Source: an uncultured Gemmatimonadaceae bacterium (lineage in GTDB: Bacteria > Gemmatimonadota > Gemmatimonadetes > Gemmatimonadales > GWC2-71-9). From it: a DNA stretch of 64,000 bases. Within the stretch, counting starts at the first letter, position 1. Every line of letters begins with the position of its first letter. The stretch is from positions 68,859-132,858 of the forward strand of contig CAZXRC010000005.1 of NCBI GenBank assembly GCA_964642475.1. Direction: 5' to 3'. The position numbers and the translations under genes were made by a program. The notes under the pieces were generated by a model. The model searched no databases. It worked only from the letters and a program-made list of their open reading frames with translations, and had not been told where the DNA came from. Of this stretch, positions 1,762 to 16,268 are shown piece by piece.

Positions 1762-2949
1762 TCAAGGGCGATCCAGCTCGGCCCGCAGACCCTCGGCCAG
1801 GCAGGACAGATCCTCCGCGGAGCTCAGCACCCCGCCGGCCACCCGATTGGTCTCCTTCACGCCCTGCGAGACGGTGCCGATGCCCTCACTGACCTCCTGG
1901 GTACGGAGGGCGGAGTCCTGGATGTTCTTGCTGATGTCCCGCGTGGCCAATCGCTGCTCGCCGACCGCGCTGGTGATGGACGCGGAGGTCGCGTCCAGCT
2001 GGTGGATGGTGCGGGTGATCCGGTCGATGGCGGTGACGGCTTCCTGCGTGGTCCGCTGGATCGAGGTCACCCGCTCGTTGATCTCTTCCGTCGCCGCCGC
2101 CGTCTGGGTCGCGAGTTCCTTGACCTCGGTGGCGACGACGGCGAACCCCTTCCCATGTTCGCCGGCACCGGCCGCCTCGATGGTCGCATTGAGCGCCAGC
2201 AGACGGGTCTGACTGGCGATCCGGCTGATGACCGTGACCACCCGACCGATCTGGCGGGAGGCCTCGACCAGCTCATTCACCGTGCGCCCGGTGTGCACCA
2301 CTTCGGCCACGGCCTCCTGGGCCGCGCGACTGGACTGGCTGACCTGACGCTCGATCTCGGTGACGGTGGCTGAGACCTGCTCGGTGGCCGAGGCCACCGA
2401 GGTCAGCCCCTCCGACGCCCGCCGCGCCGCGTCCGCCACCGCTTCCGACTGGTCCGCGCCCTGCTGGGTGGTGGCGGCCAGCCCCTTGGCGCTGCTCCGC
2501 AGCGCCGTCGCGGCGTCGGTAATGTCGGACGCCGCCGAGCGGATCATCTGCTCGGCGGCCTGGACCCGACTGGCCCCCGAGGCCATGTCCGCGATGGCGC
2601 CGTTGATGATCTCGGCGCCTCGCCGGAAGCACCCGAGGAGGCCGTGGGGCAGCACCTGCCGGTAGAACTGGCCGGCGCTGGCGTGCTGCAGAGAGGCCCC
2701 CGCCTCCCGGACGAAGGCATCGGTGAGGTCGAGCAGCTGGTTGATGGCATTGGCCATCTCGGCCATCTCCCCGAGCCCCTCCCAGCTCTCGATGTGCAGC
2801 ACCCGGGACTCGAGATTGCCCTGGGCTGCTTCCCGACACACGCTGGTGACCTGGCGCAGGCAGGCCTGGTAGCGTTCCAGGCGCTCCGCCGCCGAGTCCC
2901 CGGTCAGTACCGGATCGGCCGTCAGATCGCCAGCCATGACCACGGTCAT
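1762..2949 (-). CDS. Soluble methyl-accepting chemotaxis protein
   Basis: MCP signalling hairpin [37 protein letters not shown]. No obvious TM helix. HAMP-like N-terminus. Confidence 0.92.
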
Positions 2950-3500
2950 GCGGCCCTCCCCTCAGCCCGGCTGGTCGCCAGCGACCAGACGAACTCGTCG
3001 TAAGTCTTCCCCATGTCGGAAAGGGCCTGGGTCAGCTGCGCCGTCGACGCGGCCATGCCCTCGGTCTTTCGGTCATAGCCCCGCTCGGTCGCCTCCAGTG
3101 CTTCGTAGAGCGGGGCGATCACGTCGAGCGCCTGCCGGGACGCGGTCCGCCGATTCGAGTGAAAGCCGACGAGCCTCCCGGCCACGTCGTAGCTGGGCGT
3201 CACATGGGCCAGGACCCAGTAGTGGTCGCCATTGCGGGCGAGATTCAGCACGTAGGCGAAGATCTCGCGGCCATCCTGGATCGTGTCCCAGAGGAGCTTG
3301 AAGACCGCCCGGGGCATGCGGGGGTGGCGGATCAGGCTGTGGGGCTGGCCCAGGAGCTCTTCCTCCCGGTACCCCGAGACGCGCATGAAGACGCTGTTGG
3401 CGTAGAGGATCTTCCCGTTGAGATCGGTCTTCGAGACGATGATCTCGTCATCCTGGAATCGCCGCTCGCGCCCGGTCGGCTCGATGGTCCGTTTGCTCAC
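2946..3500 (-). CDS. Stand-alone Aer-type PAS domain protein
   Basis: [16 protein letters not shown]...[14 protein letters not shown]...[11 protein letters not shown] matches the Aer FAD-binding PAS pattern. GTG start with GGAG RBS. 4-nt overlap with the MCP. Confidence 0.88.
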
Positions 3501-3548
3501 CGCGGGCTCTCCATGAAACGCAGGTGTCCGATGAGGATCTCCAGCAAG

Positions 3549-3576
3549 TCATCGGACGGGGGCGGCGGTTTCTTGA
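3549..3576 (-). promoter_or_regulatory. Putative sigma28 promoter of the PAS-MCP operon
   Basis: Minus strand TCAAG-N15-TCCGATGA about 50 nt upstream of the GTG start. Confidence 0.6.
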
Positions 3577-3784
3577 GTCCCCCGGGCGCGGAGAATCTCG
3601 ATCGCTTCACCCGGTTATCGCGGCACCGGGGAGGGACCCGGCAGGCCCGGGTTCGACCCCCGAGCCCAGCCCGCCGAGGCGCGATTCCCCCACCGGCGGT
3701 GCCTGGGTATACTGTCGCAACCTCCCGATCCTGTTGGTTCGCGTCCGAGTCTGCCGGCGGCCCGGCCTTGCCCCGGAGCAGCGA

Positions 3785-6574
3785 ATGACCCCAGAACGCG
3801 ATGAGCTGCAACGGTTGCGGACCGAATGCGATCGGCTCCGCGCCCGGGTCGCCGAACTGGAGCGGGCGGATGACAATGCCCGCCGCGAGTCTGGCGAAGC
3901 CCCCTCCACCTCCGTCTCCCTGTTCGACTCCGCCCTGAACGCGACCAACGATGGGGTGCTCATCGTGGGACCGCGGGGCCGCATCACCTACTTCAATCAG
4001 GCGTTCCTGACCATGTGGCGGGTGCCGGCGACGCTGGCCGAAGCCGGCGATGACGACGCCATGCTGGCCTGGGTCCTGGATCAACTGGCCGATCCCGAGG
4101 GATTCCTGGCCAAAGTCCGCGAGCTGTATGCCCAGCCCGAGGCCGACAGCGCGGACCTGCTGGAATTCCGGGACAGCCGGTGCTTCGAGCGCCGCTCCCA
4201 GCCTCAACGCCTGAACGGGGCCGTGATCGGGCGGGTCTGGTGGTTCCGGGACATCACCGAGCGCCGACGGATGGAGCGGGAGCTGGCGCAGTCCGAGGAA
4301 CGGTTCGCCCACATCTTCCAGGCCAGTCCGTTCTCCATTCTCCTGGCGACCTATCCCGAAGGGCGGATCGTGGCGGTCAACGAAGCCTTCCTGCGGCTGT
4401 TTGGCTTCGAACGGGAAGATGTGATCGGCCGGACCACCGGTGAAATCGGTCTGTGGAGCAACCCGGAGGACCGCGAGATCATGCTCGGTCGGCTGGGCGC
4501 CGAGGGGGCCGTGAGCGGAATGGAGTTCACCTTCCGGTCCCGCCACGGTGACCCCAAGGTCCTGCTCCTGTCGGTGGAGCTGGTGCAGATGCAGGGCCAG
4601 TGGCACGCCCTGGCCATGTCGATCGACATCACCGAACGCCGCCGGGTCGAGGACGTGGTACGGCGCCAGGGCACCCTCCTGCAGGCCATCATGAACGGAA
4701 CCAGCGATGCGGTCTTCATCAAGGACCGCGAGGGCCGCTACGAGCTGATCAATCCGGCGGGCGCCCTGATGCTGGGTCATCCCGTCTCGGCGGTGCTGGG
4801 ACGGACCGACCGGGAGCTGGTCCCCCCCGAAGCCGCGGCCGAATTCCAGCTGAGCGACGAGCGGGTCATGTCCGCCGGCGAGCCTCGCCTCCGGGAAGAA
4901 GTCGCCGTCATCGGCGGCCGCGACTTCGTCTTCCTGTCGCAGAAGGCTCCCTGGCGTGATGGCGAGGGTCGGGTGATCGGCCTGGTCGGAATTTCCCGGG
5001 ATATCACCGAGCGCAAGCGGACCGAGGCGGCCCTCCGGGAATCCGAGTCACGGTACCGGACCCTGTTCGAGGCCATCGGCGAGACCATCTTCCTGCTTTC
5101 GCCCGAGGGCACCTTTCAGGCCCTCAACCGGGCCTTCGAGACCACCACCGGCTGGGAGCGCACCGACTGGCTGGGACGATCGTTCCTCGAGCTGCTTCAC
5201 CCGGGCGATCACGACCGGGCCCGTGACATGTTCCGCCGAGCCGCCCTAGGCGAAAAGGGCCTGGTCCAGGACTTCAAGGCGCGGCGCAAGGCGGGGGACT
5301 TCCTGGTCGCGGAGTGCAGCGCCATGCATCGCCTGATCCAGGGCGACCGGGTGATCGGCTTCCTTGGCACCGCGCGGGATGTGACCCAGCAACGCCGGCT
5401 GGAGGATGGACTCCGCCAGGCCCAGAAACTGGAAGCCCTCGGAACGCTGGCGGGAGGGATTGCCCACGACTTCAACAACATCCTCACGGCGATCATGGCC
5501 CACGCCGGATGGCTGCAGGAGGAGCTCGCCGGTGAGGCCCGGGTGGCGGAGGATCTGCAGGGCATCCAGGGCGCCACAGCCCGCGCCAAGTCCCTGGTAC
5601 GGCAGATCCTCACGTTCAGCCGCCAGCAACCGGAAGAGCGACGGGTCATCGCCCTCGAGCCGGTGGTGCGCGAGGCCGTTTCGCTGCTGCGCGCCACCCT
5701 CCCGGCCACGATCGAAATCCGCACCGACCTCGGCGAGGCCGACGCCCTCATCCTGGCCGACCCGACCCAGGTGCACCAGGTCATCGTCAATCTCGGCACC
5801 AATGCGGTGCACGCCATGCGGGCAGCCGGTGGCATCCTCCGCCTCAGCCAAACGATCGTCGACGGGACCAGTGGCGGGACCCTGCCCGCGACGCTGCCCC
5901 CGGGGCGATACGTCCGGTTGACGGTCAGCGATACCGGGCACGGCATGTCGGTCGAGACCCTGCGGCGCATCTTCGATCCGTTCTTCACCACCAAGGCCCC
6001 CGCGGAGGGCACCGGCCTGGGGATGGCCGTCGTACACGGCATCATGCGAAGCCACGAGGGAGACATCGGTATCCACAGCCGTCCCGGCGAGGGGACCGAG
6101 GTGGTCCTCCACTTCCCGCTGGTGGAGCGCCAGGAGGCGAGCCCGGATTCCGGAATCCCCCCGGTCCCGAGGGGAGCCGGCGAGCGGATCCTGCTGGTGG
6201 ACGACGAATCCGAGCTGGTTCGGCTGGGAACCCGGATGCTGACCCAGCTGGGGTATCGGGTCAGCGGGTATGCCTCCCCGCAGGAGGCGCTGGCCGCATT
6301 CCGAGGGCGGCCGGAGGACGTTGACCTGGTGGTGTCGGACCTGACCATGCCGGGGATCACGGGTGCGGACCTGGCGAGGGAAGTGCTGTCCCTCCGCCCC
6401 GAGCTGCCGGTGCTCCTGACCTCCGGGTACCTCGGGGCCCTGACGCCCGAGGCCATGGAGGAGATCGGGATCCGCGAACTGCTGGTCAAGCCCTTCGAAT
6501 CCCGGACCCTGGGGGAGGCGATCTGGCGCTGTCTCCGCGGAGACGGCCCGCGGGCCGCTCCGGCGGTATCATGA
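3785..6574 (+). CDS. Multi-PAS (4x) hybrid sensor histidine kinase
   Basis: Probable start MTPERDEL at 3785 (track ORF from 3524 looks over-extended). Four PAS/PAC units, H-box AGGIAHDFNN, HATPase GTGLG, receiver LVVSDLTMP. Confidence 0.9.
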   Translation: MTPERDELQRLRTECDRLRARVAELERADDNARRESGEAPSTSVSLFDSALNATNDGVLIVGPRGRITYFNQAFLTMWRVPATLAEAGDDDAMLAWVLDQLADPEGFLAKVRELYAQPEADSADLLEFRDSRCFERRSQPQRLNGAVIGRVWWFRDITERRRMERELAQSEERFAHIFQASPFSILLATYPEGRIVAVNEAFLRLFGFEREDVIGRTTGEIGLWSNPEDREIMLGRLGAEGAVSGMEFTFRSRHGDPKVLLLSVELVQMQGQWHALAMSIDITERRRVEDVVRRQGTLLQAIMNGTSDAVFIKDREGRYELINPAGALMLGHPVSAVLGRTDRELVPPEAAAEFQLSDERVMSAGEPRLREEVAVIGGRDFVFLSQKAPWRDGEGRVIGLVGISRDITERKRTEAALRESESRYRTLFEAIGETIFLLSPEGTFQALNRAFETTTGWERTDWLGRSFLELLHPGDHDRARDMFRRAALGEKGLVQDFKARRKAGDFLVAECSAMHRLIQGDRVIGFLGTARDVTQQRRLEDGLRQAQKLEALGTLAGGIAHDFNNILTAIMAHAGWLQEELAGEARVAEDLQGIQGATARAKSLVRQILTFSRQQPEERRVIALEPVVREAVSLLRATLPATIEIRTDLGEADALILADPTQVHQVIVNLGTNAVHAMRAAGGILRLSQTIVDGTSGGTLPATLPPGRYVRLTVSDTGHGMSVETLRRIFDPFFTTKAPAEGTGLGMAVVHGIMRSHEGDIGIHSRPGEGTEVVLHFPLVERQEASPDSGIPPVPRGAGERILLVDDESELVRLGTRMLTQLGYRVSGYASPQEALAAFRGRPEDVDLVVSDLTMPGITGADLAREVLSLRPELPVLLTSGYLGALTPEAMEEIGIRELLVKPFESRTLGEAIWRCLRGDGPRAAPAVS

Positions 6575-6593: not shown

Positions 6594-7874
6594 CTAGGAC
6601 CCGTCGTCTTCGCCCGCGCGACAGCGAATCAGAAGCTGCCCGACGTCGCTGCAGACGACCGGCAAGACTACGTCCCAGCGCGCATGCTCCATCCGCCGCA
6701 CCGCCCCCTGGGTCGGGGTCCCGAGATCCAGGGAAATGCCCCGAAGGTGAATCAGGTGGCGCAGCCGGCCCGCCAGGGTGTTGGTAATCTCCAGGAGCGA
6801 CTCGCGCCCCGCCTCCGGGGATCGTTCGCCCGGGCCCAGGACCGCCTCCGCCAGGTTCGGCAGCAATTCCTGCTTGCCGGCAATCTCCAGCCAGAGCGCC
6901 GCCCCGGCGGCGGCCTCCCGGAGCTGGATCCCCACGACCAGCTCGGTCTGGAACTCCGCTTCGACGCCGTTCAGCGGCGTGACCTCGCGATTGGTCATCA
7001 CCCCCAGCACCTGCTGGGCGGCGGAGAGCAGCTCGCCGCGGAGGTGCACCGACAGGAGCGACCGCAGCCGCTCCGGGACGGTCGCGACTTCCTCGTCGAC
7101 GTCGATGATCTGCTGGAGGAAACTGTCGGGAACGAAGGTGCGGGTCATGACGCCGTCGAACAGCCGGGGATCGGCCTCGCGGGACGGCTCCGCCTGGTCC
7201 GCCAGGAGATACACCCGCGGCCGGCGCGCTGGCGGTACCGCCCGAACCGCCTTGGCAATCGCCTCCGGGGAGAAGAGTTCGAGCCCGTGCCCCACGCACA
7301 CCACGGTGGTGCGACTGCCGCGTTCCACCACCTCCTGGATCCCGGCGGCGCCGTCGTCGGTGTCGATCACCGTGAAGCGGCCCTCGAGGATGCTGCGCGC
7401 GAATGAACGGAAGTTGGGATCCCGATCGATCAGCAGGAAGACCTTGCCGTTCAGGGCCCGTTTGCCGCGCGGACCCTCCTCTTCCGGAGTGGCGGTCGAG
7501 GCGGACAGCGCGGCCGTAGTCCGTCGGATCAGCATGTCGAAGTCGAACGGCTTGAGCAGGAAGTCGCGCACCCCGAGCTCCGCCACCCGGGCCACCCGCG
7601 TCCGATCGGCCACGCCCGACATCGCGATGACCTGCAGGTCGGCGTGATTGTTCGAGGTGCGAATGGCCTGCAGCATGGCCACGCCGTCCATGACCGGCAT
7701 GCCGATGTCGAGAAGCACCAGGTTGGGGCGGGCCCGCGCGATCGCGAGGAGGCCCTCGAGGCCGTTACTGGCCTCGCGCGCCTCGCAGCCCAGCCGGTCC
7801 TGAACAATCCGGCGCAACACCGACCGGACGCTCAACTCGTCATCGACAATCAGCACCTGCATGCCTTCCCCCAC
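6594..7874 (-). CDS. Response regulator: REC + degenerate REC + CheX-like domain
   Basis: N-terminal REC (VDDE...LLDIGMP...KPF), start possibly 7862. Second REC-like unit lacks the Asp. C-terminal LLEITNTLAG resembles the CheC/CheX E-x2-N motif. Confidence 0.7.
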   Translation of the reverse strand: MGEGMQVLIVDDELSVRSVLRRIVQDRLGCEAREASNGLEGLLAIARARPNLVLLDIGMPVMDGVAMLQAIRTSNNHADLQVIAMSGVADRTRVARVAELGVRDFLLKPFDFDMLIRRTTAALSASTATPEEEGPRGKRALNGKVFLLIDRDPNFRSFARSILEGRFTVIDTDDGAAGIQEVVERGSRTTVVCVGHGLELFSPEAIAKAVRAVPPARRPRVYLLADQAEPSREADPRLFDGVMTRTFVPDSFLQQIIDVDEEVATVPERLRSLLSVHLRGELLSAAQQVLGVMTNREVTPLNGVEAEFQTELVVGIQLREAAAGAALWLEIAGKQELLPNLAEAVLGPGERSPEAGRESLLEITNTLAGRLRHLIHLRGISLDLGTPTQGAVRRMEHARWDVVLPVVCSDVGQLLIRCRAGEDDGS

Positions 7875-8057
7875 GGTGTCGCGTGCGCCGCTTGGCGAAG
7901 TCCGCGGCCCTGCCGGTCATCGGGCCAGCGAAGCCCGCCGCCGCTGCCTGCTCACTACCTGGACCATAGCCGGAGCCCGTGCGATTGCGCACTAGGGACG
8001 TCACTAGCTGCGACCACGCCTAACCACCTAACACAGCATGGACTTGGCCACTCCATG

Positions 8058-8084: not shown

Positions 8085-8178
8085 AGGTCCGAGCGCTCAT
8101 GAATCCTTCACGCTAGCGTCGGGCAGGACCTGCCTCGTTTCGTGCCTCCGGGTCTCGGCATGGGCCTACTTGGCGCAT

Positions 8179-8192
8179 TAGGGTTATCCCTA
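8179..8192. promoter_or_regulatory. 14-bp palindrome, candidate NarL/LuxR-family operator
   Basis: TAGGG-TTAT-CCCTA, about 120 nt upstream of the 8314 gene. Similar in length and shape to RcsB-type boxes. Confidence 0.4.
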
Positions 8193-8313
8193 GTAGCATC
8201 CGAAGCGGGGTGGGGCCAATACTTATCCCCCCCTGGGTTAACAAGTTGCCGGCCGGAGCCGCGCCGTACGCGACACCGGCCGGTCACGATTCTCAACCGA
8301 GAGGAACCTGACC

Positions 8314-8649
8314 ATGGGCACCGGACCACTGGGTGGGAAGGAACAGCTGATCAGCGTAGCGGAGGCGGCCGACATGGCTCGGCGACACCGGGAGAAGAAC
8401 CCCTCCGCCGTGCGCGGCTGGGGGTTCGGCCGGGAAGCGATCGACGCCCTGCTGGCCCAACCCGGGTGCGCTGGCATCCGGGTCTATCGCGGCCTGGCCA
8501 CCGACGGGGCCGAGCAGGTCCTGATCGTCGGCATCGACGCGAATGGGAATGACCTGGTTCCGGCCAAGGCCACCGACCCTGGGCTGGTGGCGGAGCGTGG
8601 CTGGCCATGCCCCCCGCTGTGCGCCGCCGACTCTCTGCTCAACGGTTAG
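8314..8649 (+). CDS. Small hypothetical protein with C-terminal PCPPxC motif
   Basis: 111 aa, RBS GAGG before ATG, coding-like codon usage, ends ERGWPCPPLCAADSLLNG. Confidence 0.8.
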   Translation: MGTGPLGGKEQLISVAEAADMARRHREKNPSAVRGWGFGREAIDALLAQPGCAGIRVYRGLATDGAEQVLIVGIDANGNDLVPAKATDPGLVAERGWPCPPLCAADSLLNG

Positions 8650-8668
8650 GCCGGAACCGGGACGGGCC

Positions 8669-9388
8669 GTGACGACGTTTCAGCTGGCCTACGCGGCCAC
8701 CGCCGCCGCCACCCTTTCATTGCTTTTCCCGATTTGCGCCGGGCTCTGGCGCTGGCGGGCGATTTCCCCGGCAGCGCAGGTGTTCGTCATCGCCCTAGTC
8801 ATTGAACTTGGTGCCGAGTTGACCGAGTTTGTGCTGGCAACGGCGCAGTCGAACAACCACTGGGTGGCCTACGCGCTGACGCCGATCGAATCCACCCTGA
8901 TCGTCGCGGCGCTGGCACTCTGGCAGGACGATGCGACCTCGCGCCGGTGGATGCTGCGGGCCGCGCCGGTCATGCTCCTGGCCTGGTTCCCCCCGCTGCT
9001 CGGCTGGGAAAACCGCGCGAGTTTCAGTCTCGGAACCGATACGCTGCAGGCAGCGGTGTGCCTGGCGCTCGCGGCCTACACCGTCATCCGGCGCTGGATC
9101 AGCGCCCCGGAAGGGGTCGGCCCCCAGGACTGGGCCTATATGGGAGCCGGCGTCATGTTGTATTCCGGCACCTACGCGCTGGTGAACCCGCTGAACCATT
9201 ATCTGCTCGGCGCGTCCATCAGCACCGCTCTGACCGTGCTGATCGTTCGCTCCGGGTTCCAGGTCCTGGCCAACACGCTCTATTACCTCGGAGTCCGATG
9301 CTCACGCAGCCAGCTCAGCTCTGGGCATTCTTCCTCGCCGTCACGCTGGTGGTCACCATTCTCGTGGTGGCCGTCGCCGCCTCGCTGA
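8669..9388 (+). CDS. Hypothetical integral membrane protein (about 7 TM)
   Basis: GTG start at 8669 in the 8543..9388 frame. Seven hydrophobic segments and an SNNHWV motif before TM3. Confidence 0.75.
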   Translation: MTTFQLAYAATAAATLSLLFPICAGLWRWRAISPAAQVFVIALVIELGAELTEFVLATAQSNNHWVAYALTPIESTLIVAALALWQDDATSRRWMLRAAPVMLLAWFPPLLGWENRASFSLGTDTLQAAVCLALAAYTVIRRWISAPEGVGPQDWAYMGAGVMLYSGTYALVNPLNHYLLGASISTALTVLIVRSGFQVLANTLYYLGVRCSRSQLSSGHSSSPSRWWSPFSWWPSPPR

Positions 9389-10074
9389 TCGTCACGCAAC
9401 GCAAGCTGGCCCGCGCCGCCAGGGCGTTCGCCCTCGGAGTGCTGAAAGCCTCCGAGGACGAGCGGCGGCGGGTGGCGCGGGAACTGCACGACGATGTCGG
9501 ACAACGGATCGGCGGCCTGTGCCAGCGACTCGAAACGCTGCAGGAACGGCTGCGCACCACCGAGGTCGACCCGCCCCTCATCACGGCCACCGTAGCGGTC
9601 GGCGATGGGCTCCGGGAGGTCGCGGCGACCGTCCGGCAGTTGGCCCACAACATGCACCCCTCGGTGCTCGAACACCTGGGGCTGGGTGCCGCACTTCAAT
9701 CCCTGGCCCGCGATGTCACGGCCGAATCCGGGCTCCACGTCACGGCACGCATCGAGGCCGGCACGGATGAGCTGTCGCCCGAGGCGAGCCTGGCGCTGTA
9801 TCGCGTTTGTCAGGAGGCGTTGCGCAACTGCATCAAGCACGCCCGGGCCACCAGCGCGACCGTCGAACTCTCCCGGGTTGGAACGATCATCCGGCTGTCG
9901 GTATCGGATAACGGGGTCGGGTTTGCTCCCGGGCAGGCCGCCGGCGACGCCGGCTTGGGCCTGGTGAGCCTGCGCGAGCGCATCGGTCTGCTGAAGGGGC
10001 GGTTCGAGGTCGTCTCGCAACCGGGACACGGTACAATGGTCCTCACCGAGGTATCTGAAGGAATGACGCAATGA
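9298..10074 (+). CDS. NarX/HisKA_3-type sensor histidine kinase with single N-terminal TM
   Basis: Start MLTQPAQLWAFF (GGAG upstream). ERRRVARELHDDVGQ H-box, EALRNCIKHA N-box, DNGVGF and GLGL G-boxes. Confidence 0.9.
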   Translation: MLTQPAQLWAFFLAVTLVVTILVVAVAASLIVTQRKLARAARAFALGVLKASEDERRRVARELHDDVGQRIGGLCQRLETLQERLRTTEVDPPLITATVAVGDGLREVAATVRQLAHNMHPSVLEHLGLGAALQSLARDVTAESGLHVTARIEAGTDELSPEASLALYRVCQEALRNCIKHARATSATVELSRVGTIIRLSVSDNGVGFAPGQAAGDAGLGLVSLRERIGLLKGRFEVVSQPGHGTMVLTEVSEGMTQ

Positions 10075-10811
10075 GTCACACGCCCACGGTCGTAATCGCC
10101 GACGACCATCCGTTCGTCTGTGACGGCCTCCGCGCCAATCTCGAGCCGGCGTGCTCGGTGGTCGGGGTGACCCATCATGGCGAGGATGTGCTCGGCCTGA
10201 TCGATAGCCTGCGCCCGGAACTCCTCCTGCTCGACCTCATGCTTCCCGGTCGCGGCGGCCCCTGGCTCATTCGGGAAATCAAGAGTCGGCCGTCCCCGCC
10301 TCGGATCCTGATCGTCACGATGCACGCCGATCCGGCCTACGCCGAGGTATGTCTCAGGGCGGGAGCGGATGGGTATCTCCTCAAGACGGCCCGCGCCTCC
10401 GAGCTCCGGGAAGCGGTCCGGGAAACGCTGGCCGGCCGCCCCTTCGTTTCGCCCGAGGTGCACGCGGGCCCGGGCCAGCCTCCCCACCAGTGGGAGTCCA
10501 TGGGCCACCTCCGGCACGACGAGTGGGTGCGGCTCAAGCAGCTCACGCCGAGGCAACTGCAGGTCCTGGCCCTGCTTGGCCGCGGAAGCAGCAGCACCGA
10601 GATCGGCGCCGCGCTGGGGGTGTCCGTGAAGGCGGTGGAGTATCACCGCTCGGCGATCCGCCGCACGCTGGGGATCGGCACCACCGCCGGCCTGTACCGC
10701 GTGGCAACGCTCTATCTCGAAACGACGGAGGCGGCAGCCGGAATGATCCCCGGCTCGGGCCCGCTGGCCGGGACCGCTCCCGATTCCCCAGACCAATCGG
10801 CCGACCGGTAG
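10071..10811 (+). CDS. NarL/LuxR-family response regulator
   Basis: REC (ADDH...LLDLMLP) plus LuxR HTH (LTPRQLQVLALLGRG...SVKAVEYHRSAIRRTLG). Confidence 0.92.
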   Translation: MSHTPTVVIADDHPFVCDGLRANLEPACSVVGVTHHGEDVLGLIDSLRPELLLLDLMLPGRGGPWLIREIKSRPSPPRILIVTMHADPAYAEVCLRAGADGYLLKTARASELREAVRETLAGRPFVSPEVHAGPGQPPHQWESMGHLRHDEWVRLKQLTPRQLQVLALLGRGSSSTEIGAALGVSVKAVEYHRSAIRRTLGIGTTAGLYRVATLYLETTEAAAGMIPGSGPLAGTAPDSPDQSADR

Positions 10812-11069
10812 CCCATGGCCGTAGCCCTAAAGGAGTGGAACCCCGGATCCGCCCTGATGTCGAGAGGACTCGGCGTGTCCTTTTCGTACCACTGTCCGAG
10901 CGGTGACGCTACAATGGCAACCCCTAGCATTCTCTCATAAGAGATTGTGAGACAATGAGATAGGCGCCTCGCTCAGGACTTCCAGAATTCCCATTCCGCA
11001 TGGCGCTGAACTTGCGGCCTCAGGATTTCGGTGGTGTCGGTCGATCCTCTGAGGCGGGAGGTTCCGCAT

Positions 11070-11156
11070 ATGATCAAAGCCTTGTTCACGATGATCCTGT
11101 TGAGCAACGATCACGCAGCTCGCCTGGTCGAGCGCCTTCACCGACTCAAAGCCTAG
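11070..11156 (+). CDS. Possible 28-aa small ORF
   Basis: GGGAGG RBS then ATG. Translates MIKALFTMILLSNDHAARLVERLHRLKA. Below the track length cutoff. Confidence 0.3.
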   Translation: MIKALFTMILLSNDHAARLVERLHRLKA

Positions 11157-11274
11157 CCGACGCTCGGTCAGGAACGGGAACGGGGCGGCCGATAGCCGCC
11201 CCGTTCTGCATTCCTGCCACCCCGCCGACGCCGGCGCGACCCCATCTCAGCGCCGCCGACGAGGTCGCCCGGCC

Positions 11275-12105
11275 CTACCGGGTGGACGAGAGCGGGTGCT
11301 CGAAGCTCAGGTAGGCGAAATAGTCGTGCGCCGTTTCGCCCTCGCTCCGGGTGAAAGGTACGGCGAACCCGGGCACCACCTGCAGGCGTCCGAAATTGAC
11401 CGCTGCCCGCACCCCCGGACTGAAAATCCACGAGGTGGTGTAGCCGACCTTGCCGGTCGGGTCGATCGCGCCGTCGTGGCTGACCAGGCTCTCCATCATG
11501 AGTTGCACCGGCACGGTGACCGGGCCGATCAGGCTCCCCCCGGCAAAGAGGCCGCCTACCGTGCGCCTGGGCCGAGCGCCACCCGTGGCCGGGCCTTGGG
11601 CCCAGGGCAGGACCGTGGCACCGGCATTCAGGTGGGTCACGACCTGACTCGAAAGGCGGTAGGAAAGCGGCAGGTTCATCTGGAGCCCGGGGCTGCCGTC
11701 CCCGAGGCCGCGTGCGACGCTGCCCGTCGGCAGGATCACGCTGAGACGCGGCGCCAGGGCCCATGACAGTTCGCCGGCCCCGAATTGCACCCGGTAGTTG
11801 AGCAGGAGGTCACCGAACCCCGCCGAGCGCCCGTCGAGACGAGTAACCGGCAGGGTGTAGCTCAGTTGATGGCGCTGACTCCGGAAGGGCCACTCCTGGG
11901 TGAAGGAGTAGAACAGATCCCGGTGACGGGCCCCGGCCAGGGCGACCGTATTGATGTGCTGCACCACACCCGGTTCCTGATTGTATCCCTCCTCGATGAA
12001 GAAGGAGTTGTCCTCGATGACCGGTTCCACCCCGTCCTGCGCCGGGAGCGCTGCGGTGAAGAGGGGAATCAGGAGGAGAGCCGCGAGAATCGTCCGGCCC
12101 GTCAT
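11275..12105 (-). CDS. Exported 'transporter' / MetA-pathway-phenol-degradation-like beta-barrel protein
   Basis: Signal peptide, IEDNSFFIEEGYNQEPGVVQH motif, alternating beta-strands, GFGDL and LPTGS motifs. Confidence 0.65.
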   Translation of the reverse strand: MTGRTILAALLLIPLFTAALPAQDGVEPVIEDNSFFIEEGYNQEPGVVQHINTVALAGARHRDLFYSFTQEWPFRSQRHQLSYTLPVTRLDGRSAGFGDLLLNYRVQFGAGELSWALAPRLSVILPTGSVARGLGDGSPGLQMNLPLSYRLSSQVVTHLNAGATVLPWAQGPATGGARPRRTVGGLFAGGSLIGPVTVPVQLMMESLVSHDGAIDPTGKVGYTTSWIFSPGVRAAVNFGRLQVVPGFAVPFTRSEGETAHDYFAYLSFEHPLSSTR

Positions 12106-12364: not shown

Positions 12365-13273
12365 TCATGACAGGAAGGTCCTCGCGCTTTCGGCGGTCTT
12401 CTGGACCGTCCCCACCAACTCCTCCACCTCCGCATCGGTCGCGCCGAGTTCCGTCAGGACATCGGCCGAGCTGCAATCGGCGGGGCCCTCCTCGGGCAGA
12501 CCCGCCCCGCCTTCGATACAGAGGGTCTCGGCCGCCTGGACGATTCGGCAGACCCGCTGATGCTGGTCGTCGGCCTGGGCCGGGTGGTGATGGTTGGTGA
12601 CCGCTTCGGCGGTGCTCGCGGGGAGTGACCAACGACCCAGAAGCAGCCCTCCGACCGCGCCGTGGTCCATGCCCAGGTGATCCTCCTCCACCTGCCAGAG
12701 CCGCCGATTGGCCTCGGCCCGAATGGTGAGCACTTCGTCGAACTCCCTCGGAAAGTGCTGCTCGATCACCAGCACGCCGGCATCGTGGAGCAGTCCGGCC
12801 ACGTAGATGTCGTCGGCGCTGATGGCAGGGTCATCGCCGAAGCGGTCCCAGAGCTTCCGCGCCATCATCCCCACGGCCGCGGAGTGGATCCAGAACTCCT
12901 GATGGTCGAGGCCACCGGCCCGGCTCCCGAAGGCTTTGACCACCGCCAGCACGATACAGACAGCCCGGACCTGGTTGACACCGAGCATCGACACGGCCGA
13001 CGACACCGACCCGATCCGATCCCCCCCGGGGCGGGCGAAAGCGGCGGAGTTGGCGGCACGAAGGAGCCGGGCGGTCAGGGCCGGGTCCCGTTCGATGATC
13101 CCGGCGACTTCCTTGGGGCCGGCATGCTCGTTGTCGAGCACCCGGTGGAGCTGAAACACCACGGTGGGCAAGGTGGGAAGGTTCTCCCCCTTGGCCAGCA
13201 AGTCCCGCATTCCGTTGATGATATACGGCACTCCCTGCCCCTCCCTGAAGCGGGGCATTCCCGCCCCGGACAT
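12365..13273 (-). CDS. HDOD domain protein
   Basis: LPTLP...DPALTARLLRAANSA...FWIHS...GLLHDAG...DHGAVG...W.LP. True start is probably downstream (e.g. 13210). Confidence 0.9.
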   Translation of the reverse strand: MSGAGMPRFREGQGVPYIINGMRDLLAKGENLPTLPTVVFQLHRVLDNEHAGPKEVAGIIERDPALTARLLRAANSAAFARPGGDRIGSVSSAVSMLGVNQVRAVCIVLAVVKAFGSRAGGLDHQEFWIHSAAVGMMARKLWDRFGDDPAISADDIYVAGLLHDAGVLVIEQHFPREFDEVLTIRAEANRRLWQVEEDHLGMDHGAVGGLLLGRWSLPASTAEAVTNHHHPAQADDQHQRVCRIVQAAETLCIEGGAGLPEEGPADCSSADVLTELGATDAEVEELVGTVQKTAESARTFLS

Positions 13274-13274
13274 C

Positions 13275-13306
13275 TCAAGGTATCGGCAAGCGCCACCGAT
13301 ACTTCA
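13275..13306. promoter_or_regulatory. Overlapping divergent sigma28-type promoters (motAB and HDOD gene)
   Basis: Plus: TCAAG-N15-ACCGATAC (13275-13302). Minus: TGAAG-N14-GCCGATAC (13306-13280). Confidence 0.6.
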
Positions 13307-13329
13307 GCCATGTCTACGGCAGGCTCTCC

Positions 13330-14196
13330 ATGATTGCGATCATCGGTCTGCTGGTGGTCCTTGGCGCGGTGGCGGGCGGGTTCACCATGGCCGGGGGCCA
13401 CCTGCCCGCGCTGTTCCATCTGTCCGAGATCGTGGTGATCGGCGGCGTCGCGCTGGGCACGGTGCTGATCTCCACCCCCGGGCCGGTTCTCAAGTCGCTG
13501 GGCGGCAAGCTGGGGGGGGTCTTTAAGGGAGGACGCTTCAGCAGGGCCACCTACCTGGAGGCCCTGAAGATGTTGTACGAGCTGTTCCAGGTCGCCCGGA
13601 AAGACGGCCTGGTGGCCATCGAGTCCCATATCGAGGACCCCGAGAAGAGTTCGATCTTCAAGAAGTACCCCAAGGTCCTCCATGAGCATCACGCCATGGA
13701 GTTCCTCTGCGATTCGCTCCGGCTGGTGCTGGTGGGAAGCGTGCCCCCCCATGACCTCGATGCCCTGATGGACGGGGAGATGGACGTGCACCACGAGGAG
13801 GCGGCCAAGCCGGCGGCGGCCCTGCAGAAGGTGGGCGACGCGCTCCCCGGCATCGGCATCGTGGCGGCGGTCCTCGGGATCGTCATCACCATGGGCGCCA
13901 TCTCCGGTCCGGTGGAGCAGATCGGCGAACACGTCGCCGCGGCGCTCACCGGCACTTTCCTCGGCGTGCTGCTGGCCTATGGCTTCATGGGGCCGCTGTC
14001 GTCCGCCATCGAGAACAGCAACCAGGAAGAGAGCCGGTTCTTCGCCTTCCTCAAGTCCAGCGTGGTGGCCTTCGCGAAGGGGTTCGCCCCCATCGTGGCG
14101 GTGGAGTTCGCCCGCCGGGCGATCTATTCCAACCACCGGCCGACCTTCCAGGAGATGGAAGCTGCCTGCAAGCAGGCGGCGAAAGCGAAGGGCTAA
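13330..14196 (+). CDS. motA: Flagellar stator protein MotA
   Basis: MotA TM pattern, ARKDGLVAIE, LPGIGIVAAVLG, ALTGTFLGVLLAYG, VEFARR. Confidence 0.97.
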   Translation: MIAIIGLLVVLGAVAGGFTMAGGHLPALFHLSEIVVIGGVALGTVLISTPGPVLKSLGGKLGGVFKGGRFSRATYLEALKMLYELFQVARKDGLVAIESHIEDPEKSSIFKKYPKVLHEHHAMEFLCDSLRLVLVGSVPPHDLDALMDGEMDVHHEEAAKPAAALQKVGDALPGIGIVAAVLGIVITMGAISGPVEQIGEHVAAALTGTFLGVLLAYGFMGPLSSAIENSNQEESRFFAFLKSSVVAFAKGFAPIVAVEFARRAIYSNHRPTFQEMEAACKQAAKAKG

Positions 14197-15084
14197 ATGA
14201 ACAAGGCCCGCGAACAGCCGATCATCATCGTCAAGAAGAAGGTCCACGGGCACGGCCACCATGGCGGCGCCTGGAAGGTGGCCTTCGCCGACTTCATGAC
14301 CGCCATGTTCGCGATGTTCCTGGTGCTCTGGCTGGTGAACCAGTCGAGCGACGTCAAGGCCGCGATCGCGGGCTACTTCCAGGACCCGCTGGGTCGGGCG
14401 GGGGAGTTCGGCAGCTCCATCATGCCGGGCGAGGGGGCCCAGACCCAGAGTCCCCGGATCATGTCGCCCCGCCAGGTGATCGACCTCCGGCGCGACCGGA
14501 TGCGGGCGGTGGCCGAGCAGATCAAGCAGCAGATCCGGGAAGTGCCCGCCCTGGCGGAGCTGGCCGAACACGTGGAGATCGAGGTCACCCCCGAGGGTCT
14601 CCGTATCCAGCTGCTGGAAGACTCGACCGGAGTCTTCTTCGAAACCGGCAACGCGGTCCCCAAATCGGCCGGGGCCGAGCTGCTGCGCTTCCTGGGCAAG
14701 ACCCTCAGTGCGCTCCCCAATGCGGTCGTGGTCGAAGGGTTCACCGACGCCAGGCCGTATCACCGGCTGGACGGCTACTCCAACTGGGAGCTGAGCGTCG
14801 ACCGGGCCAACGCCTCGCGCCGGATCATGCAGGAGGGCGGGCTCAACCCGGCCCAGGTGCAGCAGGTGCGCGGCTGGGCCGACCGCAAGCTGCGCGATCC
14901 CGAGCACCCTTTCGCCGATGCCAATCGCCGGGTGACGGTGACCATGCTCCTGCCCGAGGTCGTCACCGACTCCCTGGCGACCCGCCTGGGCGCGGCGCAC
15001 GACTCTCTCGCGGCCCACCAGGCGATGCCCGAGGCGGCCCTGCTCCCGGCCGACAGCGGGCACCCGGTCGCCACCCCCCCATGA
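14197..15084 (+). CDS. motB: Flagellar stator protein MotB
   Basis: HHGGAWKVAFADFMTAM and OmpA-like domain with NWELSVDRA. Confidence 0.97.
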   Translation: MNKAREQPIIIVKKKVHGHGHHGGAWKVAFADFMTAMFAMFLVLWLVNQSSDVKAAIAGYFQDPLGRAGEFGSSIMPGEGAQTQSPRIMSPRQVIDLRRDRMRAVAEQIKQQIREVPALAELAEHVEIEVTPEGLRIQLLEDSTGVFFETGNAVPKSAGAELLRFLGKTLSALPNAVVVEGFTDARPYHRLDGYSNWELSVDRANASRRIMQEGGLNPAQVQQVRGWADRKLRDPEHPFADANRRVTVTMLLPEVVTDSLATRLGAAHDSLAAHQAMPEAALLPADSGHPVATPP

Positions 15085-16268
15085 GCGTCCCCGTCAGCAC
15101 GGTCCTCCTGGTCGAAGACGACCCGACCACGCTGGCGCACTTCCGCCGGGTGCTGGAACACGAGCCCGCGCTCCGGGTCACCACCGCGACCAACGGCCGT
15201 GAGGGAATGGCGCTGGCCCGCGAACTCACGCCGGACCTGATCATCTCCGATTACCAGATGCCGGAGATGAACGGCTTCGAGTTCTGCCGCGCCGTCAAGG
15301 CCGATCCCGCCCTCGCCGGCTGTCTCTTCGTGGTGCTGAGCGGCTTCACCGACACCTCGCTCAAGGTCCGGGGTCTCAACCTCGGGGTGGACGACTACCT
15401 CACCAAGCCGATCGATATTCCCGAGCTCCTGGCCCGGGTCCGGGCCAGCCTGCGCCTCAAGCGGCTGCAGGACGAGCTTCGGGGCGACCGGGACGAGATC
15501 CACCAGCTCCACGAGGAGCTGGAGCGGAGCTTCGACCAACTGCTGCACCTGCTGATTCAGCTGGAGGACCAGGGGCTGCCGGGCGCCGCCGAACGCGGGG
15601 TCCGGCTGGCGGATCTGGCGCTCAAGCTGGCGGAGCGGTTCGACATCCCGCAGGAGCTCCGGGCTGATATGGTCATCGCCGCGAAGCTCCACGAGATCGG
15701 GCACGTGGTGGATGCGGCCCACCACACGGCGGGCACCCCCGATCAGCCGGGCTGGCACCATGCGGTGGTCTCGGCGGCGCTGATGGAACAGGTCGAACGG
15801 CTCAAGGGGGCGGCGGAGCTGATCCGCTGGACCTCGGAGAACTGGGATGGCACCGGCCAGCCGGATCACCTGGTCTCGGGACAGATCCCCCTTCGCTCCC
15901 GGCTGCTTCGGGTGGCGGGCGACTTCCTCGAGCTGGTGAGCGCCCGGCCCGACCGGCCGGCCCTGACGCCGCAGCGCGCCATCGACCAGCTCACCCTTCG
16001 GTCCGCGACCTGGTACGACCCCCTGGCCCTGGTGCACCTGTCCTCGGTGGTGCTGGACCGGCCACGGGAAGAGTGGGAATCGACCCGGTTCGCGGTGGCG
16101 GTGGATCAGCTGCAGATCGGGATGGTGCTCGCCGCCGACGTGAGCACCAGTGGCGGGGTAAAGCTGCTGGCCCGGGGGGCGACCATCACCGAGAGCGTCC
16201 TGCAGGTCATCCAGCGGCGGCACGCGGCCGATCCCATCATCGACGCCGTCTGGATCAAGAAGAGCTAG
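15081..16268 (+). CDS. Response regulator with degenerate HD-GYP-like domain
   Basis: REC (IISDYQMP), coiled coil, then KLHEIG and ENWDGTGQPDHL in place of LHDIG / ERWDGSGYP. Confidence 0.8.
   Translation: MSVPVSTVLLVEDDPTTLAHFRRVLEHEPALRVTTATNGREGMALARELTPDLIISDYQMPEMNGFEFCRAVKADPALAGCLFVVLSGFTDTSLKVRGLNLGVDDYLTKPIDIPELLARVRASLRLKRLQDELRGDRDEIHQLHEELERSFDQLLHLLIQLEDQGLPGAAERGVRLADLALKLAERFDIPQELRADMVIAAKLHEIGHVVDAAHHTAGTPDQPGWHHAVVSAALMEQVERLKGAAELIRWTSENWDGTGQPDHLVSGQIPLRSRLLRVAGDFLELVSARPDRPALTPQRAIDQLTLRSATWYDPLALVHLSSVVLDRPREEWESTRFAVAVDQLQIGMVLAADVSTSGGVKLLARGATITESVLQVIQRRHAADPIIDAVWIKKS

What the first reader, a model, noticed from the sequence alone, without database searches (positions are those of the whole stretch)
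8179..10811. Candidate uncharacterised signalling module: PCPPxC small protein + 7-TM protein + NarX-type kinase + NarL-type regulator
Seen: four co-oriented, tightly coupled genes. They encode a 111-aa protein ending GWPCPPLC, a 7-TM protein, a kinase whose only input region is one N-terminal TM helix, and a NarL regulator. A 14-bp palindrome (TAGGGTTATCCCTA) lies upstream, and AT-richer DNA flanks both sides. Known: kinases without their own sensor domain often rely on an accessory membrane subunit, and NarL/LuxR regulators bind palindromes of this size. Inference: the small protein yields or presents a Cys-constrained signal, the 7-TM protein is the split receptor, and the regulator autoactivates, giving a quorum-sensing-like or redox-sensing loop. 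I recall similar unannotated gene sets in Bacteroidota but cannot verify that here.
Basis: partly seen in the sequence, partly recalled or inferred. Interest (0 to 1): 0.82.

Follow-up and report, generated by a model that had tools for sequence, protein, structure and literature searches.

The report
Uncharacterised four-gene membrane signalling operon
A small cysteine-motif protein and a seven-helix membrane protein, neither belonging to any described family, sit next to a sensor-less kinase and its regulator here and in at least five other bacterial phyla, which points to an undescribed type of bacterial sensor whose signal is unknown.

Summary
Four co-oriented, coupled genes encode a 111-aa CPPxC protein, a 7-TM protein, a one-TM HisKA_3 kinase and a REC-GerE regulator. 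An imperfect palindrome lies upstream.

The gene set is not a chance neighbourhood. In 75 of 78 related loci with enough downstream sequence, a 7-TM gene of one family directly follows the small gene. These loci come from Gemmatimonadota, Chitinophagaceae, Holophagae, Ignavibacteriota and Zixibacteria.

The third gene varies: HisKA_3 kinase (52 loci), classic HisKA kinase (14) or a PAS-LuxR one-component regulator (3). In nearly all loci where its 5' end could be read, it starts with a short tail and one TM helix.

Neither the small protein nor the 7-TM protein matches Pfam, NCBIfam or PDB sequences. The small protein models confidently (pLDDT 90) as a compact domain that includes CPPxC, with no fold neighbour in PDB or BFVD.

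Clade-specific 16-bp palindromes, here (C/T)TAGGG-N4-CCCTAG, recur upstream of the small gene.

- **Supported:** a split receptor and autoregulation.
- **Not supported:** a secreted Cys-constrained peptide signal.
- **Open:** the stimulus and the small protein's role. I propose a thiol or metal co-sensor.

Verdict: a new variant of accessory-protein-dependent two-component signalling.

The parts
7993..8006 (.). Second operator-like site, TAGGGACGTCACTA (16-mer CTAGGGACGTCACTAG, 1 mismatch to CTAGGG-N4-CCCTAG). It lies 119 nt upstream of the start of the divergent REC gene.
   Evidence: Like the first site it is preceded by GCGCA(C/T).
8179..8192 (.). Operator-like palindrome TAGGGTTATCCCTA (16-mer TTAGGGTTATCCCTAG, 8178-8193), starting 135 nt upstream of the small gene's ATG.
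   Evidence: The same TAGGG-N4-CCCTA element lies 57-119 nt upstream of the small-protein domain start in L001, L006, L071, L078 and L086. It forms an island of identity with L006, TTGGCGCAT..TAGGGTTAyCCCTAGT, in an otherwise unalignable spacer.
8314..8649 (+). Small soluble protein, 111 aa, from a domain family not in Pfam or NCBIfam. WPCPPLC is at residues 97-103. It has no signal peptide.
   Evidence: AlphaFold2 model pLDDT 90. No fold neighbour in PDB or BFVD.
8669..9388 (+). 7-TM membrane protein, 239 aa, predicted N-terminus outside and C-terminus inside. The family has no invariant residue. The best-conserved positions are P21, N62-N63-x-W65 (outer loop 2), an F-W pair at the start of TM6, and Y165.
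9298..10074 (+). Sensor-less histidine kinase, 258 aa: a 7-residue outer tail, one TM helix, a basic juxtamembrane stretch, a HisKA_3 DHp domain (H-box LHDDVGQ) and HATPase_c.
10071..10811 (+). NarL/LuxR-type response regulator, 246 aa (REC + GerE helix-turn-helix).

Best explanation
This is an autoregulated signalling operon whose input is built from separate subunits.

1. The HisKA_3 kinase has no sensor of its own. It has only a 7-residue outer tail and one TM helix.
2. Inferred: this helix docks in the membrane against the 7-TM protein, which perceives or relays the stimulus.
3. Inferred: the small globular CPPxC protein, cytoplasmic in this operon, is a third obligatory subunit acting on the cytoplasmic face of the 7-TM protein.
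4. Most speculative: the small protein works as a thiol-based switch (redox or metal) or another ligand-binding co-sensor.
5. The kinase phosphorylates the NarL-type regulator.
6. Inferred from conservation: the regulator binds the two (C/T)TAGGG-N4-C(A/C)CTAG sites in the upstream spacer and controls its own operon.

Shown here: the gene order, the domain content, the conservation, the interchangeable outputs, the operator conservation, and the absence of any known family or fold. Not shown: the physical contacts, the sign of regulation and the stimulus.
For: 1. Small gene followed by 7-TM gene is near-universal. It holds in 75 of 78 non-redundant loci with at least 700 nt downstream. These come from Gemmatimonadota, Bacteroidota, Acidobacteriota (Holophagae), Ignavibacteriota and Zixibacteria.
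2. The third gene changes type: HisKA_3 kinase in 52 loci (45 with an adjacent REC-GerE regulator), classic HisKA kinase in 14 Geothrix/Holophagae loci with no adjacent regulator, and a 1-TM-PAS-LuxR one-component regulator in 3. In nearly all loci where its 5' end could be read, the product begins with a short tail, one TM helix and a basic stretch. The TM anchor is therefore the only element common to all partners.
3. The 7-TM family shows alternating K+R density, 0.66/3.29/1.35/2.78/1.10/2.19/1.18/2.25 per segment. This gives N-out, C-in. A head-to-tail fusion with the N-out kinase helix would need an extra TM, which explains why the genes stay separate.
4. The 91-nt overlap recurs in L006 and other high-GC loci. 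It is therefore not a frameshift.
5. The 7-TM family has no invariant residue, which argues against an enzyme.
6. The small protein is a confidently modelled compact domain that includes CPPxC. C99 and C103 are invariant in 74 members.
7. Many relatives are tandem two-domain proteins (87 of the top 150). This suggests the functional unit is a dimer that brings two Cys pairs together.
8. Clade-specific 16-bp palindromes lie upstream of the small gene: CTAGGG-N4-CCCTAG, CTACTA-N4-TAGTAG, CTATAA-N4-TTATAG and A(A/C)CGTA-N4-TACG(T/G)T. Most are unique within their 6-16 kb locus. None is found in the 13 Holophagae loci scanned, which lack an adjacent regulator.
Against: - No interaction has been tested, and complex modelling was not available.
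- The small and 7-TM proteins could be cargo of the operon rather than its input.
- Seven to nine Puia-like loci keep the module without any cysteine. A thiol switch therefore cannot be the universal mechanism.
- About 30% of the closest family representatives carry signal peptides or lipoboxes. The domain is therefore not intrinsically cytoplasmic.
- The best-conserved 7-TM motif (NN.W) faces the periplasm, not the side where the small protein is predicted to sit.
- The reciprocal test, whether the 7-TM family always accompanies the small protein, could not be run.
Confidence: 0.55

Rival explanations
1. Effector reading. The kinase senses a membrane perturbation by itself through its single TM helix, as intramembrane-sensing kinases do. 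The small and 7-TM proteins are the regulated output of the operon, a stress-response pair comparable to LiaI/LiaH under LiaRS, and not part of the sensor.
For: They are the first two genes of an operon preceded by the regulator's likely operator. No contact has been shown. The 7-TM family has no ligand-binding loops.
Against: The pair stays glued to the transducer gene even where no DNA-binding regulator is adjacent (14 Holophagae loci with an orphan HisKA kinase). It also stays when the transducer is a one-component PAS-LuxR protein. An effector pair would be expected to follow the operator and regulator, not the TM-anchored protein. The genes are translationally coupled to the kinase.
Confidence: 0.2
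2. First reader's reading. The small protein is the precursor or carrier of a Cys-constrained extracellular signal, the 7-TM protein receives or processes it, and the loop is quorum-sensing-like.
For: The operon looks autoregulated. The region before and after CPPxC varies in length, and Bacteroidota tails end in Trp-rich peptides. Some paralogues are secreted. The gene order loosely recalls agr and comQXPA.
Against: There is no signal peptide and no room for one. No protease, modification enzyme or exporter is nearby. The 7-TM family lacks invariant catalytic residues. CPPxC is part of a confidently folded domain. The small protein is the best-conserved component across phyla (29-63% identity to the window protein, against 20-51% for the 7-TM protein), the opposite of pheromone-type diversification. 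Secreted paralogues sit away from any 7-TM or kinase gene.
Confidence: 0.08
3. Pseudogene reading. The 7-TM and kinase genes are the two halves of one frameshifted multi-TM kinase of the MctS/UhpB type.
For: The two reading frames overlap by 91 nt. The kinase's best NCBIfam hits (MctS, UhpB) align only to the C-terminal halves of kinases that carry N-terminal multi-TM domains.
Against: The split is conserved in every locus examined, with overlaps or gaps of different lengths and independent start codons. The predicted topology forbids a direct fusion.
Confidence: 0.02

Closest known systems
LiaFSR-LiaX cell-envelope stress system of Firmicutes (PMC10269926)
   Same: A HisKA_3-family kinase without an extracellular sensor and a NarL-type regulator. 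Kinase activity is set by a separate membrane protein (LiaF) together with a further non-membrane protein (LiaX). The operon is autoregulated. It is effectively a four-component system.
   Different: LiaF carries the PF09922 domain and LiaX the PF13349 domain; neither is found here. LiaS, from my own knowledge, has a two-TM hairpin, whereas this kinase has one TM. LiaX is a surface protein, whereas the small protein here has no export signal. The phyla differ.
BceRS-BceAB and DcuS-DctA type sensing through a transporter (bioRxiv 10.1101/2020.02.28.969956; PMC5703999)
   Same: The kinase cannot sense on its own and takes its input from a polytopic membrane partner.
   Different: In those systems the partner is a working transporter (ABC or DctA). 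No ABC or transporter family matches here, and the 7-TM family has no invariant residues.
DesK-DesR thermosensor (own knowledge)
   Same: A HisKA_3 kinase with a NarL-type regulator, where the signal is read entirely within the membrane by TM helices.
   Different: DesK's five TM helices are part of the kinase polypeptide, and no accessory soluble protein is involved.
Agr and ComQXPA peptide quorum sensing (own knowledge)
   Same: A small gene, a membrane-protein gene, a kinase and a regulator in one autoregulated operon. ComP/ComA also belong to the HisKA_3/NarL class.
   Different: There is no match to AgrB, AgrD, ComQ or ComX. Here the small protein is a folded 100-aa domain, and the kinase, not the accessory protein, lacks the multi-TM sensor.
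WCPPC active site of tryparedoxin-type thioredoxin-fold proteins (own knowledge)
   Same: A W-(P)-C-P-P-(x)-C motif. A few family members even have CPPC spacing.
   Different: The predicted fold is not thioredoxin-like and has no PDB neighbour. The usual spacing is C-x3-C.

Membership tests
HisKA_3 / NarL-class two-component system | Kinase with a HisKA_3 dimerisation/phosphoacceptor domain (H-box) and HATPase_c. | tested here: met
   PF07730 at 42.7 bits (cut-off 24) and PF02518 at 47 bits (cut-off 26.4). The H-box LHDDVGQ is read directly.
HisKA_3 / NarL-class two-component system | Regulator with a REC domain and a GerE/LuxR helix-turn-helix. | tested here: met
   PF00072 at 83.2 bits and PF00196 at 41.4 bits.
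NarX/NarQ nitrate sensor kinases | Periplasmic sensor domain between two TM helices, plus HAMP. | tested here: not met
   There is one TM helix and a 7-residue outer tail. The NarX model scores 67 bits against a cut-off of 578 and aligns only to profile positions 389-581 of 598.
MctS / UhpB-type kinases | N-terminal multi-TM sensor fused to the HisKA_3 core. | tested here: not met
   The hits cover only profile positions 204-443 of 457 (MctS, 152 bits, cut-off 700) and 283-490 of 499 (UhpB). The 7-TM protein is a separate gene in all loci.
LiaFSR(-X) | LiaF with the PF09922 domain and LiaX with the PF13349 domain. | tested here: not met
   No Pfam hit for the window proteins, for 26 members of the 7-TM family or for 74 members of the small-protein family. 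Domain names are taken from PMC10269926.
Agr quorum sensing | AgrB peptidase, AgrD propeptide, a multi-TM kinase and a LytTR regulator. | tested here: not met
   No Pfam match to any Agr family. The regulator is GerE-type and the kinase has one TM.
ComQXPA quorum sensing | ComQ isoprenyl transferase and the ComX propeptide. | tested here: not met
   No polyprenyl-synthase or ComX match in the operon. Only the HisKA_3/NarL output class is shared.
Bce-type transporter-coupled sensing | An adjacent ABC transporter that partners the kinase. | tested here: not met
   No ABC genes were seen in the window flanks or in the homologous loci whose flanks were inspected.
YhhN family (UniRef's name for the Niabella 7-TM homologue) | A match to the Pfam YhhN model. 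| tested here: not met
   No YhhN hit up to E = 10 for P0174, P0185, P0022 or P0019, nor for 26 members at E <= 0.1.
Thioredoxin-fold CxxC oxidoreductases | A thioredoxin fold carrying the Cys pair. | tested here: not met
   Foldseek against PDB gives no hit with E <= 0.001 and a best TM-score of 0.26. PDB sequence search is empty.
Proposed new module (small CPPxC domain + 7-TM + 1-TM transducer) | The small gene is directly followed by a 7-TM gene of the same family, then by a gene whose product starts with a single TM helix. | tested here: met
   This holds in the window and in 75 of 78 informative loci.
Proposed new module (small CPPxC domain + 7-TM + 1-TM transducer) | Physical complex between the three proteins. 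| not testable with these tools
   No multimer modelling or experiment was available.

The most novel reading that the evidence does not exclude
The leaderless small protein reaches the cell surface or the medium by an unconventional route that depends on the 7-TM protein. It then acts as a self-produced protein signal read back through the 7-TM/kinase pair. This would be a protein-based autocrine or quorum loop in Gemmatimonadota, Chitinophagaceae and Holophagae, phyla in which I know of no such peptide or protein signalling. The evidence does not exclude it: paralogues of the same domain are genuinely secreted, the operon looks autoregulated, and the best-conserved 7-TM motif faces outward.
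Probability: 0.07. Interest if true: 0.85.

Novelty: new variant of a known kind. Interest (0 to 1): 0.62.

Why it matters
Kinases that lack a sensor are common, and for most of them nobody knows what they read.

The two accessory families found here are portable. The same small-protein and 7-TM pair is attached to three unrelated kinds of TM-anchored transducer in five phyla. The small-protein domain alone has about 2,750 clusters at 50% identity, of which 1,239 score E <= 1e-10. It has no Pfam or NCBIfam entry and no structural neighbour.

If the model is right, it defines:
- a new input cassette for bacterial signal transduction;
- two new protein families that need naming;
- a compact system, four genes plus a defined operator, that can be rebuilt in E. 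coli to find the stimulus.

It would also give a first functional handle on regulation in poorly studied soil phyla. Cultured carriers include Geothrix fermentans DSM 14018, Niabella drilacis DSM 25811 and Flavihumibacter petaseus NBRC 106054.

Tried and rejected
- **Frameshifted single kinase gene.** Rejected because the split and the overlap are conserved and the topology forbids a fusion.
- **7-TM protein as AgrB-like, CAAX-type or other intramembrane peptidase, or as a prenyltransferase.** Rejected because 67 aligned members have no invariant polar residue and there is no Pfam or NCBIfam match.
- **YhhN relationship suggested by a UniRef name.** Not reproduced.
- **Search for 7-TM homologues fused to kinases or in other contexts.** The word-indexed search with the window protein and with alignment A2 returned only 3 proteins each. 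The reciprocal co-occurrence test therefore remains open.
- **Fold assignment of the small protein.** The 74-sequence model is good but has no neighbour in PDB or BFVD. PDB sequence searches were empty.
- **Literature.** Four keyword searches, including 'CPPXC', found no description of the module.
- **Rfam.** Nothing in the window.
- **Promoter and terminator scan.** No sigma-70-like promoter was found, and the terminator count was at shuffle level.
- **Regulon members.** Extra operator-like sites occur after the regulator gene in L084 and L008, and a weak half-site at window 10912-10927. No interpretable target gene was found next to them.
- **Horizontal transfer inferred from AT-richer flanks.** Rejected, because the low-GC stretches are just the intergenic spacers.
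Full report
**1. What is in the window**

The window is about 68% GC, and the closest relatives of its proteins come from Gemmatimonadota metagenome bins.

Four genes lie on the + strand:
- A 111-aa protein (8314-8649) with a good ribosome-binding site. No in-frame start lies further upstream, so it cannot carry a signal peptide.
- A 239-aa membrane protein (GTG 8669-9388).
- A 258-aa kinase (9298-10074): a 7-residue tail, one TM helix, a QRK-rich stretch, HisKA_3 and HATPase_c.
- A 246-aa REC-GerE regulator (10071-10811).

The spacings are +19 nt, -91 nt (out of frame) and -4 nt (ATGA).

WPCPPLC is at residues 97-103 of the small protein, and eight residues follow it.

TAGGGTTATCCCTA (8179-8192) pairs at 6 of 7 positions.

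The lower-GC flanks are the two intergenic spacers.

**2. The gene set is conserved far beyond this lineage**

The small protein has 17 close homologues in which C-P-P-x-C is invariant. Their contigs show the same order: small gene, membrane gene, HisKA_3 kinase, REC-GerE regulator.

A scan of one genome per species returned 80 further loci:
- Gemmatimonadota.
- Bacteroidota, mostly Chitinophagaceae, including Niabella drilacis, Flavihumibacter petaseus, Puia and Ohtaekwangia.
- Acidobacteriota of the Geothrix/Holophaga group.
- Ignavibacteriota.
- Zixibacteria.
- Myxococcota.

I called ORFs locally and iterated an HMM from the window's 7-TM protein. A member of that family directly follows the small gene in 75 of 78 non-redundant loci that hold at least 700 nt downstream.

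An exhaustive profile search shows the small-protein domain is large. It has 2,751 clusters at 50% identity with E <= 0.001 and 1,239 with E <= 1e-10.

**3. The output is interchangeable; the anchor is not**

The third gene takes three forms:
- A HisKA_3 kinase in 52 loci, 45 of them with an adjacent REC-GerE regulator.
- A classic HisKA kinase (H-E-L-R-T-P box) in 14 Geothrix/Holophagae loci, with no response regulator within the 6-kb flanks.
- A protein made of one TM helix, PAS domain(s) and a LuxR-type helix-turn-helix in 3 Zixibacteria/Ignavibacteria loci.

In nearly all loci where the 5' end of the third gene could be read, these products share a short N-terminal tail, one TM helix and a basic stretch.

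This is the strongest argument that the small-protein and 7-TM pair forms the input. It also suggests the signal passes through the TM anchor rather than through any particular cytoplasmic domain.

**4. The 7-TM protein**

- Family-averaged hydropathy gives seven cores.
- K+R density alternates: 0.66, 3.29, 1.35, 2.78, 1.10, 2.19, 1.18 and 2.25 per sequence, from the N-terminus to the C-terminus. This places the N-terminus outside and the C-terminus inside.
- The kinase helix also runs from outside to inside. A direct fusion is therefore topologically impossible without an extra helix, which fits the fact that the genes are always separate.
- The 91-nt overlap recurs in L006 and other high-GC loci, and the Ser/Pro-rich tail it encodes is not conserved.
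- The family is very divergent: 9-30% identity to the window protein in alignment A2, with no invariant column.
- The best-conserved positions are a Pro in TM1, N-N-x-W in outer loop 2, an F-W pair at the cytoplasmic start of TM6, and a Tyr in TM6.
- No Pfam, NCBIfam or PDB sequence match exists for the window protein or for 26 members.
- This profile suits a sensor or scaffold, not an enzyme.

**5. The small protein**

- With a 74-sequence alignment, AlphaFold2 gives pLDDT 90 and pTM 0.77. The order of elements is helix 15-28, strand 35-37, helix 40-47, strands 54-61 and 67-74, a long loop, and strand 97-99.
- The CPPxC stretch scores 83-86, so it is part of the domain rather than a floppy tail.
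- Foldseek finds nothing at E <= 0.001 in PDB (best TM-score 0.26) or in BFVD. Sequence searches of Pfam, NCBIfam and PDB are empty.
- Source databases call the homologues hypothetical.
- Conserved polar residues are R56, Y58, D75, D80, C99 and C103.
- The protein is at least as conserved across phyla as the kinase and regulator: 29-63% identity to the window protein, against 20-51% for the 7-TM protein.
- Of the 150 best representatives, 87 carry two tandem copies of the domain and 46 have signal-peptide-like or lipoprotein N-termini.
- Secreted forms, such as the myxobacterial loci L031 and L077 and protein P0029, are not next to a 7-TM or kinase gene.
- Nine Puia-like Chitinophagaceae loci keep the whole operon but have no Cys pair. 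Their tails end in Trp-rich peptides, and other Chitinophagaceae have both ICPPSCG and a terminal (D/N)-W-(F/Y).
- The seven Cys-less loci present in the 7-TM alignment all also lack the loop-2 Asn of the 7-TM protein. This is one clade, so it is only a hint.

**6. The operator**

- TAGGG-N4-CCCTA lies upstream of the small gene in L001-L003, L006, L071, L078 and L086.
- Allowing one mismatch, there are 10 hits in 23.8 kb of upstream windows against 3 in 875 kb elsewhere.
- Other clades carry their own perfect 16-bp palindromes at the same place: CTACTA-N4-TAGTAG, CTATAA-N4-TTATAG and A(A/C)CGTA-N4-TACG(T/G)T. Most are unique within their 6-16 kb locus.
- The 13 Holophagae loci scanned, which have no adjacent regulator, show none.
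- The window has two sites, at 7993-8006 and 8179-8192. Both are preceded by GCGCA(C/T), and both lie in the 439-bp spacer shared with a divergent REC gene. They are the only two in 64 kb.
- Window and L006 share TTGGCGCAT..TAGGGTTAyCCCTAGT within a spacer that otherwise does not align.
- A 16-bp palindrome is what a dimeric LuxR/NarL-type helix-turn-helix would bind (established knowledge), so autoregulation is the natural reading. Binding and the sign of regulation are not shown.

**7. Mechanism and rivals**

Best model, confidence about 0.55:
- The 7-TM protein is the membrane-embedded input subunit.
- The kinase's single helix docks against it.
- The small protein is a cytoplasmic co-sensor or modulator, possibly a dimeric thiol or metal switch.
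- The regulator feeds back on the operon.

The first, second and fourth points rest on comparative evidence. The role of the cysteines is a guess, and the Cys-less clade weakens it.

Rivals:
- The small and 7-TM proteins are regulated effectors (0.2).
- A frameshifted kinase (0.02, effectively refuted).

**8. Comparison with known systems**

It works most like LiaFSR-LiaX: a HisKA_3 kinase, a NarL regulator, a membrane accessory protein and a further modulator (PMC10269926). It also resembles transporter-coupled kinases such as BceS-BceAB and DcuS-DctA.

It is not a member of any of these, because the defining domains are absent. 'NarX-type' applies only to the catalytic core.

I therefore file it as a new variant of accessory-protein-dependent two-component signalling, built from two undescribed protein families. 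One of them has no detectable fold relative.

No paper describing it was found. This does not prove that none exists.

Noticed in passing
L058, L059, L062, L074, L076, L080, L081, L082, L085 (small gene at about 5900-6340 in most of these loci): A Puia-like Chitinophagaceae clade keeps the full operon, but its small protein has no cysteine pair. The tails end in Trp-rich peptides (..LLTWIFGW, ..PLTWF, ..IWQWF). In the seven of these loci that are in the 7-TM alignment, the partner 7-TM protein also lacks the outer-loop Asn.
   Followed up: partly
L031 5806-6609; L077 5542-6306; proteins P0029, P0041, P0089, P0092: Secreted or lipoprotein versions of the same domain, often as two tandem copies each with its own CP(P)xC. 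They stand alone, without a 7-TM or kinase neighbour. The domain is therefore used on both sides of the membrane.
   Followed up: partly
window 9298-9388: The 7-TM and kinase genes overlap by 91 nt out of frame. The 7-TM protein's Ser/Pro/Trp-rich tail is the kinase's TM-coding DNA read in another frame. The same overlap is seen in L006 and other high-GC loci, whereas low-GC loci overlap by only a few bases.
   Followed up: partly
window 10812-11274: A 463-bp spacer after the regulator gene has the lowest GC of the region (0.56). It holds a 28-codon ORF (ATG 11070 to stop at 11156, MIKALFTMILLSNDHAARLVERLHRLKA) behind a strong GGGAGG ribosome-binding site. It also holds a weak operator-like half-site, CAATGGCAACCCCTAG, at 10912-10927.
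   Followed up: no
window 6594-7874 (-): A divergently transcribed 426-aa protein has an N-terminal REC domain and about 300 further residues with no Pfam match. The second operator-like site lies 119 nt from its start, so it may be co-regulated.
   Followed up: no
window 1762-6574 and 12365-16268; L006 4277-6144: The module sits among motility and signalling genes: an MCP, a PAS-rich hybrid kinase, an HDOD protein, MotA/MotB and a REC-HD(HD_5) regulator. Its closest relative, L006, is next to CheB and CheR. Other lineages show no such context.
   Followed up: partly
L004/L012 6059-7353; L027 2689-4025; L017, L036, L045, L060, L075: Components are duplicated locally: two 7-TM genes in tandem in L004 and L027, and two or three small genes in L017, L036, L045, L060 and L075. 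In L036 the second small gene has an N-terminal hydrophobic anchor. L019 and L035 are two separate modules on the same 3.2-Mb contig.
   Followed up: no
L038, L046, L056: These genome records are titled Rhizobium sp., Bosea thiooxidans and Asaia bogorensis. They carry loci whose small proteins share the MAKELIVVKGRVIEQNRSF... N-terminus and overall pattern of the Chitinophagaceae loci. The bins are probably mislabelled or contaminated.
   Followed up: no
window 11275-12105 (-): A 276-aa protein with a signal-peptide-like N-terminus has no Pfam match and converges on the operon.
   Followed up: no
Kinase N-termini in Gemmatimonadota loci (window 9298-9330; L006, L008, L010, L017, L023, L071): The few outer residues before the kinase TM helix carry a conserved L-W-(W/A/S)-x-F motif. 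It would lie at the same membrane face as the 7-TM protein's N-N-x-W loop and is a candidate contact point.
   Followed up: no
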